Part shown: positions 58,094 through 64,000 of the stretch, in pieces | How positions within the stretch are numbered: the stretch's first letter is position 1 | How the letters are laid out: every line of letters begins with the position of its first letter | Assembly (NCBI GenBank): GCA_951406725.2 | Contig: OX597824.1 | Location: forward strand, 98,828,001 to 98,892,000 | Length of the DNA stretch: 64,000 bases | Origin: Octopus vulgaris | Lineage: Eukaryota | Direction: 5' to 3' | Notes under the pieces: model-generated | What the model saw: the letters and a program-made list of their open reading frames with translations, nothing else | Told to the model about the DNA's origin: nothing | The model's database searches: none | Made by a program: the position numbers and the translations under genes

Positions 58094-58368
58094 ATATATA
58101 TATATATATATATATATATATATATATATACATATATATACATACATATATACATATATATATATAATACATATATATAATACATATATATATATATATA
58201 TATATATATATATATATACATATACATATATATATATATATATATATATATATATATATATATATATATATATATATACATATATATATACATACATATA
58301 TATATATATATATATATATAATACATATACATATATATATATATATATATATATATATATATATATAA
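58094..58368. repeat. Compound (TA)n microsatellite
   Basis: Direct observation; counterpart at 62029-62312. Confidence 0.95.
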
Positions 58369-58689
58369 TACAACGTTATGGAAAAAAAATGGCCTAATTA
58401 TTGAAAAAGAAAAAGTGTAACACAATTAGATAGAGCAAAAAACGGGCTTTAAAATGATATATGAAGTCAAAGTAATTTAACGAAAATTAATTTGAAAATA
58501 CATCATTTAAAACCAAAATTAAAAATCCCGCAAGAACTTTTTGACAGCTCGGGGCCAGCTAGTCACATATATATATATTGAGAAAGAGGAGGCTGTCAGA
58601 ATTTTGGATAAGTCTTTAACACTTTTGTTTGTTTTTCAAGACAAAATCAAAATCAAAACAGGAAAAACAGAACATTTCGTTGTTCTCTT

Positions 58690-59075
58690 TACTCTTTTAC
58701 TTGTTTCACTCATTTGACTGTGGCCAAACACATCGACCACAGGACTTATTCTTTGTAAGCCTAGTACTTATTCTATCGGTCTCTTTTGCGGAATCACTGA
58801 GTTACGGGGATGTAAACACACCAGCATCGGTTGTCAAGCTATGTTGGGGGGAGGGACAAACACAGAAACACAAACATATACACACACATGCATATATATA
58901 TATATATACATATGCATGACGGGCTTCTATCAATTTCAATCTATCAAATCCACTCACAAGGCTTTGGTCGGCCCAAGGCTATAGTAGAAGACACTTGCCC
59001 AAGGTGCCACGCACTGAATCCGGAACCATGTGGTTAGGAAGTAAGCTTCTTACCACACAGCCACTCCTGCACCTA
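58690..59075 (-). mobile_element. Family-B SINE (duplicated at 62634-63022)
   Basis: Full head-to-tail match to the family. Confidence 0.8.
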
Positions 59076-59257
59076 CATGAATCAGGTAGTTTTTTGAATG
59101 AATGAATCAGATATTTATTTTTGTTTTGTTTAGAAGGGGAGAATATTGTTTTTGTTTTTGGGGGGAAAGGAGGAGAGAGGAGGAAAAGCAAAGAGGGGGA
59201 AATAGACAGAGAGAGTGGTTTCAGGACAATCAAGAAAGAAGAGAATAAATAATAAGG

Positions 59258-59326
59258 GATAGATAGATAGATAGATAGATAGATAGATAGATAGATAGAT
59301 AGATAGATAGATAGATAGATAGATAG
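59258..59326. repeat. (GATA)n microsatellite
   Basis: Direct observation. Confidence 0.95.
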
Positions 59327-59710
59327 AAACTGAGAGAAAAAAAGAGATTTCTTTTCAATTTGATGTGGCCAATTCATTGAAATTTCATCACAAAGCATTT
59401 TTTTTTCCCTTTCTCCTTTCTTTCCATTGTATACCTATCAACATATTTGTAAATAAACACGTTTTCTCAAAAGGGCTGGTGACCTTTCAAAGATGTCGCT
59501 TTTAAGAAGTAGAATGGAAAAAATAAGAAACGGGGGAGGGGTGGTGCGGTCATCACTGAAAAATTATAAAAAAGAAGTTCAGTTTCATAGGACTTTGAAA
59601 TTTGAACTCTTTTTAAAATGTTTCAGTGATGACCGCAACTCTTCAAACACTAAACACACATACACCCACACACACACCTGTTTGCGTGTGTCGGTTGTAG
59701 TGAATGTGGA

Positions 59711-59879
59711 GTGACGTCACAGCTGACTTCCACCTCAAACACGAAATCCTGTCCAGTCCCATCCCATCCGCCTCACCTGTCACTCACACCTGCGAAGACT
59801 TCCTCTCTCTGGCAAATTGACTGACGAAACTTTTTTCAAATTTCATTAACGGTAGCGCATTTACAGACCTCAAGTAAGT
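59711..59879 (+). promoter_or_regulatory. Putative promoter/non-coding first exon (copy A)
   Basis: Palindromic CRE GTGACGTCAC abutting E-box CAGCTG, further CACCTG boxes, donor CAA|GTAAGT at 59874. Confidence 0.4.
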
Positions 59880-59912
59880 AAACAATCCATCTCTCTTCCA
59901 TTATATATATAT

Positions 59913-62028
59913 ATCATCATCATCATCATCATCATCGTTTAACGTCCGCTTTCCGCGCTAGCACGGGTTGGACGGTTTGACCGGGTCTGGGAAGCCAGGG
60001 GCCGCACCAGGCTCCAGTCTGAATCTGGCAGAGTTTCTACGGCTGGATGCCCTTCCTAACGCCAACCACTCCGTGAGTGGATTGGGTGCTTTTTACGTGC
60101 CACCTGCACAGGGGCCGGAGGGTCCGGCATCGTCACGATCGGTTCGAGCATTTTAACGTGTCAGCGGCACGGGGGCAACGAGGTCCGGGGTACTTTGGGG
60201 ATCGGGGTACTTTGGGGATCCAGGGTACTTTGGGGTCCGGGGTACTTAGAATGGGTAGGGGGTATGTGGAATTGCTGCAGAAAGCAGCCCGGGTCTTTGT
60301 AGTCACAGCATATCTCCAGAGATCTCGGTCCTTCGCCATTGCCTCAGTGAGGCCCAATGCTCTGAGGTCATGCTTGACCACCTCATCCCATGTCTTCCTG
60401 GGTCTACCTCTCCCCCTGATACCTTCAACTGTTTGGGAGTGGCACTTCTTCACACATCTCTCTTCATCCATCCGCAGCACATGACCATACCATCGCAAGC
60501 GTCGCTCTTGCACACCACATCCGATGCTTCTTATATCCAGCATTTCTCTCAGGATACTTACACTCTGTTTTGCGTGCACACTGACACTACACATCCAGCG
60601 GATCATGCTAGCTTCATTTCTTTCAAGTCTACGCATGTCTTCTGCAGTCACAGCCCATGTTTCATTACCGTGAAGCATGGCAGTTCGCACACATGCATCA
60701 TACAATCTACCTTTTGCTCTGAGGGAGAGACCTTTTGTTGCCAGTAGGGGTAGGAGCTTTCTGAACTTTGCCCAGGCTATTCGTATTCTAGTGGTGATAC
60801 TCTCTGTGCATCCACCTCCGCTACTAACTTGGTCTCCCAGGTAGCGGAAACTATCAACTACTTCTAGTTTCTCTCCCTGGAGTGTGATGGAATCTGTTTT
60901 CTGAGTGTCTGTTGTGTCTATTGTCCCTGTGCATCTGCCGCACATGAAAGCTATCTTATCTGTTAATTTTCCTTTAATGTTGCTGCACCTTTTATGTGTC
61001 CATAACTTACATTGGGTGCATCTTATGGAGTTTCTACCTGTACCTTTCCTACAGGTTGAGCAGGGCCACCTACCCGAGGGGATGTGTGCTGAGTACCTCT
61101 TGCTGCTTACTAATACTTTGGTCTTTGCTACATTTATTCTAAGGCCCTTTGATTCCAACCCTTGCTTCCACACCCGAAATTTCTCTTCTAGTTCCGGTAG
61201 TGATTCTGCTATGAGAGCTAGGTCATCGGCATAGAGGAGCTCCCAGGGGCATCCCGTTTTGAATTCCTCTGTTATTGCCTGAAGGACTATGATGAATAAA
61301 AGGGGACTGAGGGCTGAGCCCTGGTGCACACCTACTTCTACTCGGAATTCTTCACTATATTCGTTGCCAATCCTAACCTTGCTGACAGCCTCTCTGTATA
61401 GAGCTTGTACAGCCCTTATTAGCCATTCTTCAATCTCCAGTTTCCGCATCGACCACCAGATAAGGGAACGGGGAACCCTGTCAAAGGCTTTCTCCAAGTC
61501 TACAAAAGCTATGTAGAGGGGTTTATCTTTAGCTAGGTACTTCTCCTGCAGTTGTCGGACCAGGAATATAGCATCAGTGGTGCTTCTACCTGGTACAAAA
61601 CCGAACTGCATTTCATCTAAACAAATTCTCTCCCTAATGAGATTGGTTATGACCTTCTCTGAGACCTTCATCACCTGGTCCAACAGTTTGATACCTCTGT
61701 AGTTATTTCTATCTAGAGCATCACCCTTACCCTTGTAGCAGTTGAATATGGTGCTGCTGCACCAGTCATTGGGTATGGCTCCATTGTGAACTACCTGGTT
61801 TACAATGCGGGTGACTATGGCATGGCCCACATAGCCAGTAAGCATCTCAGCAGTGATTCCTGATAGGCCAGGGGCTTTGCCTGGTTTCATATCCTTAATT
61901 GCCTTATCTACAAGGGAGCTGTCTATTCGGGTAGCTGGTCCCTCTACTGGGTCAACATTTGGCAGGCTCTCCTCCTCCCATTCATTCTCCTCATTCAGCA
62001 GTCTTTCATAATGGCTTCTCCAAGCCTC
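59913..62028 (-). mobile_element. Young 5'-truncated RTE-clade LINE: intact RT with internal PHD finger, structured 3' UTR, (GAT)n tail
   Basis: Open frame from [11 protein letters not shown] with [43 protein letters not shown] (61222-61233), [23 protein letters not shown]. Endonuclease absent. Tail read as (cat)n on the + strand. Confidence 0.93.
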
Positions 62029-63203
62029 TATATATATATATATATATATATATATATATATATATATATATATATACATACATATATACATATATATATA
62101 TATATACATATATATATACATATACATATATATAATACATATATATATATATATATATATATATATATATATATATATATACATATATATATATATATAT
62201 ATATATATATATATATATATATATATATACATATATATATATAATACATATATATATATAATACATATATATATATATATATATATATATATATATATAT
62301 ATATATATATAATACAACGTTATGGAAAAAAAATGGCCTAATTATTGAAAAAGAAAAAGTGTAACACAATTAGATAGAGCAAAAAACGGGCTTTAAAATG
62401 ATATATGAAGTCAAAGTAATTTAACGAAAATTAATTTGAAAATACATCATTTAAAACCAAAATTAAAAATCCCGCAAGAACTTTTTGACAGCTCGGGGCC
62501 AGCTAGTCACATATATATATATTGAGAAAGAGGAGGCTGTCAGAATTTTGGATAAGTCTTTAACACTTTTGTTTGTTTTTCAAGACAAAATCAAAATCAA
62601 AACAGGAAAAACAGAACATTTCGTTGTTCTCTTTACTCTTTTACTTGTTTCACTCATTTGACTGTGGCCAAACACATCGACCACAGGACTTATTCTTTGT
62701 AAGCCTAGTACTTATTCTATCGGTCTCTTTTGCGGAATCACTGAGTTACGGGGATGTAAACACACCAGCATCGGTTGTCAAGCTATGTTGGGGGGGAGGG
62801 ACAAACACAGAAACACAAACATATACACACACATGCATATATATATATATATACATATGCATGACGGGCTTCTATCAATTTCAATCTATCAAATCCACTC
62901 ACAAGGCTTTGGTCGGCCCAAGGCTATAGTAGAAGACACTTGCCCAAGGTGCCACGCACTGAATCCGGAACCATGTGGTTAGGAAGTAAGCTTCTTACCA
63001 CACAGCCACTCCTGCACCTACATGAATCAGGTAGTTTTTTGAATGAATGAATCAGATATTTATTTTTGTTTTGTTTAGAAGGGGAGAATATTGTTTTTGT
63101 TTTTGGGGGGGAAAGGAGGAGAGAGGAGGAAAAGCAAAGAGGGGGAAATAGACAGAGAGAGTGGTTTCAGGACAATCAAGAAAGAAGAGAATAAATAATA
63201 AGG

Positions 63204-63352
63204 GATAGATAGATAGATAGATAGATAGATAGATAGATAGATAGATAGATAGATAGATAGATAGATAGATAGATAGATAGATAGATAGATAGATAGATAG
63301 ATAGATAGATAGATAGATAGATAGATAGATAGATAGATAGATAGATAGATAG
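63204..63352. repeat. (GATA)n microsatellite
   Basis: Direct observation; about twice the length of the copy-A array. Confidence 0.95.
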
Positions 63353-63735
63353 AAACTGAGAGAAAGAAAGAGATTTCTTTTCAATTTGATGTGGCCAATT
63401 CATTGAAATTTCATCACAAAGCATTTTTTTTTCCCTTTCTACTTTCTTTCCATTGTATACCTATCAACATATTTGTAAATAAACACGTTTTCTCAAAAGG
63501 GCTGGTGACCTTTCAAAGATGTCGCTTTTAAGAAGTAGAATGGAAAAAATAAGAAACGGGGAGGGGTGGTGCGGTCATCACTGAAAAATTATAAAAAAGA
63601 AGTTCAGTTTCATAGGACTTTGAAATTTGAACTCTTTTTAAAATGTTTCAGTGATGACCGCAACTCTTCAAACACTAAACACACATACACCCACACACAC
63701 ACCTGTTTGCGTGTGTCGGTTGTAGTGAATGTGGA

Positions 63736-63904
63736 GTGACGTCACAGCTGACTTCCACCTCAAACACGAAATCCTGTCCAGTCCCATCCCATCCGCCTCA
63801 CCTGTCACTCACACCTGCGAAGACTTCCTCTCTCTGGCAAATTGACTGACGAAACTTTTTTCAAATTTCATTAACGGTAGCGCATTTACAGACCTCAAGT
63901 AAGT
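63736..63904 (+). promoter_or_regulatory. Putative promoter/non-coding first exon (copy B)
   Basis: Identical copy; donor GTAAGT at 63899. Confidence 0.4.
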
Positions 63905-64000
63905 AAACAATCCATCTCTCTTCCATTATATATATATATATATATATATATATATGTATGTATGTTTAAAGAGCTAAGTAAGTGTAATGCCGTGTCTATT

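What the first reader, a model, noticed from the sequence alone, without database searches (positions are those of the whole stretch)
58094..63955. LINE insertion flanked by a ~1.85-kb direct duplication (giant TSD-like)
Seen: copy A - RTE (minus) - copy B. The element's 3' tail joins the short (TA)n ending copy A, and its truncated 5' end joins the long (TA)n beginning copy B, exactly the geometry of a target-site duplication. The copies differ only by microsatellite length, homopolymer indels and about two substitutions (aaaaaaag/aaagaaag; ctcctt/ctactt). Known: TPRT TSDs are normally tens of bp at most. Inference: second-strand nicking or annealing at a second TA tract 1.8 kb away, i.e. microsatellite-guided, LINE-mediated segmental duplication. 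Alternative: two haplotypes assembled in tandem.
Basis: partly seen in the sequence, partly recalled or inferred. Interest (0 to 1): 0.72.

Follow-up and report, generated by a model that had tools for sequence, protein, structure and literature searches.

The report
LINE between duplicated 1.8-kb flanks
A young, front-truncated jumping gene sits exactly between two near-identical 1.8-kb copies of host DNA that begin and end in TA repeats; sequencing depth suggests the extra copy is real, and it was likely made during the insertion, a rare but already known outcome that here appears to copy no gene.

Summary
Confirmed: copy A (58094-59914), a 5'-truncated RTE-type LINE on the minus strand (59915-62029), and copy B (62030 to about 63939). 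Outside microsatellites the copies differ by 2 substitutions and 3 one-base G-run indels. In one public run matching this assembly, a contig inside the copy has depth 105.5, against 53 and 58.6 on the downstream flank. That favours a real extra copy over two haplotypes assembled in tandem, but no molecule spanning the junctions was seen. The family is young (about 99% identical) and sits in TA tracts: 62 of 107 copies have them at both ends. TA at the junctions is therefore ordinary and does not prove microsatellite guidance. None of 106 other copies has a kilobase duplication. Best reading (0.5): an insertion-coupled 'large target-site duplication', the element's 5' end being joined to a break in the long TA array 1.8 kb away. 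Rivals: TA-TA misalignment independent of insertion (0.28) and assembly error (0.2). Kilobase TSDs are published for human L1 and a Chlamydomonas LINE, and this scan has noted the same layout in several other genomes. New member of a known kind.

The parts
58094..59914 (+). Copy A of the duplicated host segment (left limit blurred inside the TA array)
58089..58367 (.). Long interrupted (TA)n array opening copy A; likely holds the second break point
   Evidence: break point inferred
58371..58546 (.). Short dispersed repeat inside the copy (many places at 90-95%)
58729..59077 (.). SINE-like dispersed repeat fragments inside the copy
   Evidence: the SINE label is inferred
59258..59327 (.). (GATA)17.5 in copy A
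59332..59640 (.). MITE-like dispersed repeat with a short inverted self-match (other places 78-88%)
   Evidence: the MITE label is inferred
59902..59914 (.). Short (TA)6T tract ending copy A; inferred primary target site
59915..62029 (-). 5'-truncated RTE-type LINE with (ATG)7 tail at 59915-59935; lacks the endonuclease half; 5 private substitutions and a private 6-nt deletion
60133..62028 (-). Open frame of 631 codons plus stop: RVT_1 (E 5.6e-30) and a PHD-like finger below the Pfam cutoff
62030..63939 (+). Copy B of the duplicated segment (right limit blurred inside (TA)14, which runs to 63954)
62029..62311 (.). Long interrupted (TA)n array opening copy B, joined to the element's 5' end with 1 nt of microhomology
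63204..63353 (.). (GATA)37.5 in copy B
63927..63954 (.). (TA)14 ending copy B, followed by single-copy downstream flank

Best explanation
A young TA-targeting LINE sits between two copies of a 1.8-kb host segment, which is likely a real duplication and was likely made during the insertion itself as an oversized target-site duplication. Inferred steps: (1) the element's endonuclease nicked the short TA tract at the right end of the segment, and reverse transcription was primed there from the (AUG)n tail; (2) synthesis stopped after about 2.1 kb; (3) the cDNA end was joined, with 1 nt of microhomology, not beside the nick but to a DNA end inside the long TA array 1.8 kb away. That end may have been a distant second nick on the same duplex followed by fill-in, or a break on the sister or homologous chromatid, or a TA end that re-annealed out of register before break-induced copying. 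The segment between the two TA tracts thus ended up on both sides. The microsatellites have since drifted by slippage. Shown: the layout, the junction letters, the family's youth and TA preference, and the doubled contig depth in one run. Inferred: causation and the order of steps.
For: The duplication ends exactly at both element ends and only one element is present. An exchange between sister chromatids after insertion would either duplicate the element or leave it outside the repeat (inference). Depth in run X1: a 432-nt contig inside the copy has 105.5, against 53 (706 nt) and 58.6 (747 nt laid) for downstream contigs with 0 differences, a ratio of 1.8-2.0. The median of 39 other X1 contigs listed in those tables is 65.3, a ratio of 1.6. 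There is no assembly gap. Element and duplication are both very young: 0.24% private substitutions against 0.07% per copy, not significantly different (P 0.11 for all sites, 0.20 for GC sites). No TA-bounded duplication of unique DNA without an element was found in the 118 loci of about 10 kb. Precedents: PMC5223499, bioRxiv 10.1101/2024.12.14.628481, PMC7058536, PMC9977147 (passages).
Against: No read or contig spans either junction; the tool cuts records at these repeats. The element carries 5 private substitutions plus a 6-nt deletion in 2096 nt, against 2 substitutions in 2 x 1464 nt of copy. That leans towards the element being older than the duplication (P 0.06 when the deletion is counted). 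The long TA arrays differ in their interruption pattern, as alleles might. 0 of 106 sister copies show a unique-DNA duplication (upper 95% bound 2.8%). Three of 4 G/C runs of 5 or more differ between the copies, against 4 of 143 off-mode at 5-runs in sister elements, which hints at a poor consensus in one copy. X1 laid on copy B showed copy A's 5-G run only and no alternative letter at either substitution, though contigs drop variants and about 20% of the run was not read.
Confidence: 0.5

Rival explanations
1. The duplication is real but independent of the insertion chemistry. The element inserted normally into one TA tract, and later an out-of-register exchange between the short and long TA tracts of an element-bearing and an empty homolog gave copy-RTE-copy. 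Alternatively a TA-bounded tandem duplication came first and the TA-seeking element then landed in its junction tract.
For: Both break points lie in TA tracts. The family lands in TA routinely: 79 of 107 at the 5' end, 73 of 107 at the 3' end, against 9.5% background. The element looks somewhat older than the duplication (P 0.06-0.20). The TA arrays differ in an allele-like way.
Against: It needs two rare events at one tract. No TA-bounded duplication of unique DNA was seen in the 118 loci. The copies differ by only 2 substitutions in 1.46 kb, low for two random alleles if this genome is as heterozygous as marine invertebrates usually are (recalled, not measured here). The age difference is not significant.
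Confidence: 0.28
2. False duplication: the animal is heterozygous for an ordinary insertion in one of the TA tracts, and the assembler wrote both haplotypes in tandem, crossing over inside TA.
For: Both junctions lie in low-complexity sequence. There is an excess of G-run differences. No spanning molecule was seen. Copy-distinguishing letters were not both seen in X1. The tool warns that contig depth is no copy number.
Against: A false duplication predicts depth on the segment equal to diploid flank depth; observed is 1.8-2.0 times the flank and 1.6 times the median of other listed contigs. Six of those 39 contigs lie at 25-39, which fits a single-allele depth near 30 rather than 53 (inference from a biased list). 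There is no gap between the copies, a usual mark of false duplications (PMC9516828, passages).
Confidence: 0.2

Closest known systems
Large TSDs of engineered human L1 in HeLa and NER-deficient cells (PMC5223499; passages seen)
   Same: A 5'-truncated LINE flanked by a direct duplication in the kilobase range (5 bp to 5.3 kb, median 1495 bp in NER-deficient cells), explained by a distant second nick.
   Different: Those are de novo events in cultured human cells with L1. This is an inherited-looking RTE-type copy in an invertebrate genome, bounded by TA tracts.
L1-junction tandem duplications in cancer and induced-L1 clones (bioRxiv 10.1101/2024.12.14.628481; PMC7058536; passages seen)
   Same: 1-10 kb tandem duplications with the insertion at the junction, 'regarded as large TSDs'; proposed break-induced replication or joining to a break on the sister chromatid.
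   Different: Somatic and L1-driven; no microsatellite boundaries in the passages read.
Dualen-4b_cRei LINE of Chlamydomonas reinhardtii (PMC9977147; passages seen)
   Same: Natural, heritable LINE insertions flanked by long duplications (median 900 bp).
   Different: There it is the rule (over half of insertions) and is ascribed to two endonucleases. Here it is the exception (0 of 106 sister copies) in a family where Pfam finds only an APE-type nuclease.
RTE-clade LINEs, including octopus RTE-2_OV (PMC9115989, section 6 and passages; PMC6007223, passages)
   Same: A single long ORF with endonuclease and RT, and a microsatellite-like 3' tail.
   Different: RTE TSDs are reported as mostly 7-15 bp. 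RTE-2_OV is described with a C2H2 finger and a microsatellite-dominated 3' UTR, whereas this family shows a PHD-like finger inside the RT region and a 3' UTR of about 200 nt. Sequences were not compared.

Membership tests
Large target-site duplication of a LINE | Direct repeat that ends exactly at both ends of one element | tested here: met
   (limits blurred inside TA)
Large target-site duplication of a LINE | TPRT marks: intact 3' tail, 5' truncation, family-typical target at the 3' junction | tested here: met
   (ATG)7 tail at a TA tract; TA of 8 nt or more at the 3' end in 73 of 107 copies
Large target-site duplication of a LINE | Duplication as old as the insertion | tested here: inconclusive
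   5 private substitutions in 2096 nt against 2 in 2 x 1464 nt; P 0.06-0.20
Large target-site duplication of a LINE | Empty allele carries one copy; no allele with the element and a single copy | tested here: inconclusive
   Six other runs gave no cover of the unique parts
Large target-site duplication of a LINE | Both copies on one molecule | not testable with these tools
   Only contigs cut at repeats and short reads were available
False (haplotype) duplication | Depth per segment no higher than diploid flank | tested here: not met
   105.5 against 53 and 58.6 in one run; contig depth only
False (haplotype) duplication | Assembly gap between the copies | tested here: not met
   No N in the window, L041 or L042
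False (haplotype) duplication | Discordant read pairs or haplotype-specific words | tested here: inconclusive
   X1 shows copy A's G-run only and no alternative letter at the two substitutions; pairs not available
RTE clade LINE | One long ORF with APE endonuclease plus RT | tested here: met
   Open frames near 1100 codons in long sister copies; Exo_endo_phos and RVT_1 in L052. That this marks RTE is recalled knowledge
RTE clade LINE | Short 3' UTR ending in a microsatellite-like tail | tested here: met
   About 200 nt plus (ATG)2-10
RTE clade LINE | RT phylogeny groups with named RTE elements | not tested
   No named references in hand; Atlas hits carry no clade names
RTE-2_OV | C2H2 zinc finger; 3' UTR mostly microsatellite | tested here: not met
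   No C2H2 Pfam hit at E 0.01 in L052; description

The most novel reading that the evidence does not exclude
A microsatellite-targeting RTE LINE uses one TA tract for its first nick and another, kilobases away, to finish insertion. In a genome strewn with TA arrays this would be a recurring germline route to TA-bounded segmental duplications, with tens of cases among several thousand young copies.
Probability: 0.12. Interest if true: 0.55.

Novelty: new member of a known kind. Interest (0 to 1): 0.3.

Why it matters
If real, it is a natural invertebrate example of an outcome studied mostly in human cells and one alga: a LINE insertion that copies kilobases of host DNA. It would matter more if such events recur between TA tracts, because the family has thousands of young copies (about 5,200-6,100 first-look candidates). 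As it stands it is one event, in repeat-rich DNA with no Pfam-recognised coding piece inside the copy, so no functional effect is evident.

Tried and rejected
Second case L081 (C1): a 1.7-kb, 97-98% repeat on both sides of an RTE copy. Rejected: both pieces are copies of another dispersed LINE (matches in L097, L106, L084, L100; an RT-bearing frame continues behind the second copy), with 21 substitutions. L094/L164 repeat: two copies of a dispersed element. Intermediate TSD candidates (18 of 106 loci with shared words, against 43 of 532 control pairs): of these I inspected L046, L057, L087, L095, L113, L125, L126, L139, L143 and L154, which are separate diverged repeats (73-93%) or insertions into minisatellite or microsatellite arrays. 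The other 8 were judged from their offsets alone. Short TSD search: all matches over 12 nt were TA-type, so the family's normal TSD length cannot be read. Runs X2, X15 and X4 (contigs, 90% likeness) had no cover at 59627-59923, and X21-X23 (raw reads, about 3% of each read, 97% likeness) had none on the unique parts. Holes prove nothing, so there was no population test. A lower-depth contig (about 73) at 59834-59899 in X1 could mean 3 rather than 4 copies per diploid, or loss of words near TA; unresolved. cDNA annealing to the TA tract: rejected (1 nt of microhomology). Paper searches (listings only) showed no title or abstract start on TA-bounded kilobase TSDs of RTE elements. Supplements were not read and may hold such cases.
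Full report
Setting. The window is G000:C11:98828001-98892000 in a 2.8-Gb assembly of 227 contigs. It is AT-rich and dense in microsatellites. An octopus-like genome is my inference from size and repeat content; no call names it.

The observation. Copy A (58094-59914) and copy B (62030 to about 63939) align throughout. Outside the microsatellite arrays, over 1464 nt, they differ by two substitutions and three one-base G-run indels. 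GATA is 17.5 against 37.5 units. The two roughly 280-nt TA arrays share their opening and closing motifs but differ in several interruptions. Among the 40 candidates scored in each of two searches, only these two places match at 99% or more. The segment is mostly repeat fragments and microsatellites. I scanned 57 of 115 listed open frames near the locus against Pfam, including four that overlap copy A; none of those four hit.

The element. 59915-62029 on the minus strand holds an open frame of 631 codons with RVT_1 (E 5.6e-30), a 3' UTR of about 200 nt and an (ATG)7 tail. Long sister copies have one frame near 1100 codons with an APE-type endonuclease and RT. It is RTE-type by structure; no tree was built. 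The family is young: 72 other copies chosen for closeness align at 97-99.6%, and searches report about 5,200-6,100 first-look candidates. The 5' junction shares a single letter with the TA array.

Family survey. I fetched 117 other copies with about 10 kb each. Three lacked a 3' end, five had 5' ends beyond the stretch and three ended at gaps. That left 107 including this one, with 4.2 kb or more of combined flank, median 7.5 kb. TA tracts of 8 nt or more lie within 30 nt of the 5' end in 79 of 107, of the 3' end in 73 of 107 and of both in 62 of 107, against 2592 of 27266 background windows. Being flanked by TA is therefore the norm. Only one other locus (L081) showed a long direct repeat across the element, and it proved to be two copies of another LINE. 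A finer word search found no unique-DNA duplication of intermediate size among the candidates inspected. So 0 of 106, upper bound 2.8%. The sample is biased to the copies closest to this one, and duplications longer than the combined flank would be missed.

Real or artefact. Run X1 matches the assembly letter for letter here and may be its source, so it tests the assembly but is not independent support. A 432-nt contig inside the segment has depth 105.5. Downstream contigs of 706 nt and 747 nt laid have 53 and 58.6. The 39 other X1 contigs listed in those answers, a biased set, have median 65.3, with six at 25-39. A haplotype pair written in tandem would give flank-level depth; the observed 1.6-2.0 times favours three or four copies per diploid. 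There is no gap. PMC9516828 (passages) lists half depth and gaps as marks of false duplication. Against this: the tool warns that contig depth is no copy number; no record crosses a junction; about 20% of X1 was unread; only copy A's G-run was seen, and no alternative letters at the substitutions; and 3 of 4 G/C runs differ between the copies against 4 of 143 at 5-runs and 6 of 29 at one 6-run in sister elements. I put the duplication at about 0.8 real. Six other runs gave no cover of the unique parts and are no test.

Order of events. Among 51 aligned copies the element has 5 substitutions and a 6-nt deletion found in no other. Targeted searches for the deletion and for two of the substitutions found no sharer among 39 others scored each. 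The copies differ by 2 substitutions. If insertion and duplication are the same age, P(2 or fewer of 7) is 0.11 (0.20 on GC sites; 0.06 counting the deletion). RT errors and unsampled source elements inflate the element's count. The test leans to an older element but does not decide.

Mechanism. One element exactly at the junction is what insertion-coupled duplication gives in a single step: a nick and priming at the short TA tract, truncated synthesis, and joining to an end inside the long TA array 1.8 kb away (inferred). Whether that end was a distant nick, a break on the sister or homologous chromatid, or a TA end re-annealed out of register cannot be told from one allele. Joining to the homolog would also explain the allele-like arrays. 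The independent route needs an exchange between TA tracts of an element-bearing and an empty homolog, or a later landing in the junction tract. No element-free TA-bounded duplication of unique DNA appeared in the 118 loci, but that bound is weak. Odds: coupled 0.5, independent 0.28, artefact 0.2.

Known systems. PMC5223499 (passages) reports L1 TSDs of 5 bp to 5.3 kb in NER-deficient cells and large TSDs in up to 10% of HeLa events. bioRxiv 10.1101/2024.12.14.628481 (passages) treats 1-10 kb tandem duplications at L1 junctions as large TSDs and proposes break-induced replication. PMC7058536 (passages) proposes capture of a sister-chromatid break. PMC9977147 (passages) reports heritable Dualen duplications of median 900 bp. 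PMC6007223 (passages) gives 7-15 bp for usual RTE TSDs. PMC9115989 (section 6 and passages) and PMC13282606 (passages) describe young octopus RTE elements. No supplements were read. Earlier notes of this scan record the same layout in other genomes; they are unchecked leads, not support.

Verdict. It works like a large target-site duplication; membership is met for layout and TPRT marks, and open for age, empty allele and single-molecule linkage. New member of a known kind; interest 0.3.

Noticed in passing
L064:1196-2542, L066, L076, L077, L107, L120, L136, L139, L145, L150 (oriented coordinates): Long copies of this RTE-type family carry 5' tandem monomer arrays with units of about 250-390 nt at 98-100% identity, up to more than 6 kb in L145; they resemble rodent L1 promoter monomers (recalled). 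Earlier notes describe a 613-nt version in this genome.
   Followed up: partly
L132-L161: Several copies found with the 3' end are short yet begin with 5' monomers (for example L150, L151, L161: about 2-2.7 kb in all), suggesting internally deleted, non-autonomous derivatives.
   Followed up: no
L137:6387-7765 (oriented): Tandem pair, period 779 nt, of the element's 3' piece with tail, TA and about 45 nt of following sequence, 99.3% identical; perhaps a local duplication or a rearranged copy with 3' flank.
   Followed up: partly
G000:C1:71854200-71864500 (L081 with L115, L116): An RTE copy between TA arrays of about 1.2 and 2 kb, with two copies of a second young LINE family next to those arrays: several families pile into the same TA tracts.
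   Followed up: partly
window 42434-42730 (+): Probable host exon with an RRM fragment (Pfam RRM_1, E 1.8e-7; best single-domain PDB match ZCRB1, E 3.4e-7), about 15 kb left of the duplication and next to a 415-nt palindromic repeat at 41989-42403.
   Followed up: partly
window 52880-54215 and 55525-55696: Older RTE-related fragments (78% to the young element); seven further 3'-end fragments in the window, several also beside TA tracts.
   Followed up: no
window 59627-59896 and L041:8179-10000: Five other runs with the same species label as X1 gave no cover of these unique stretches: strong divergence, a structural polymorphism, mixed labels or filtering.
   Followed up: no
L164:4620-6395: A 1.8-kb palindromic repeat (91% arms).
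   Followed up: no
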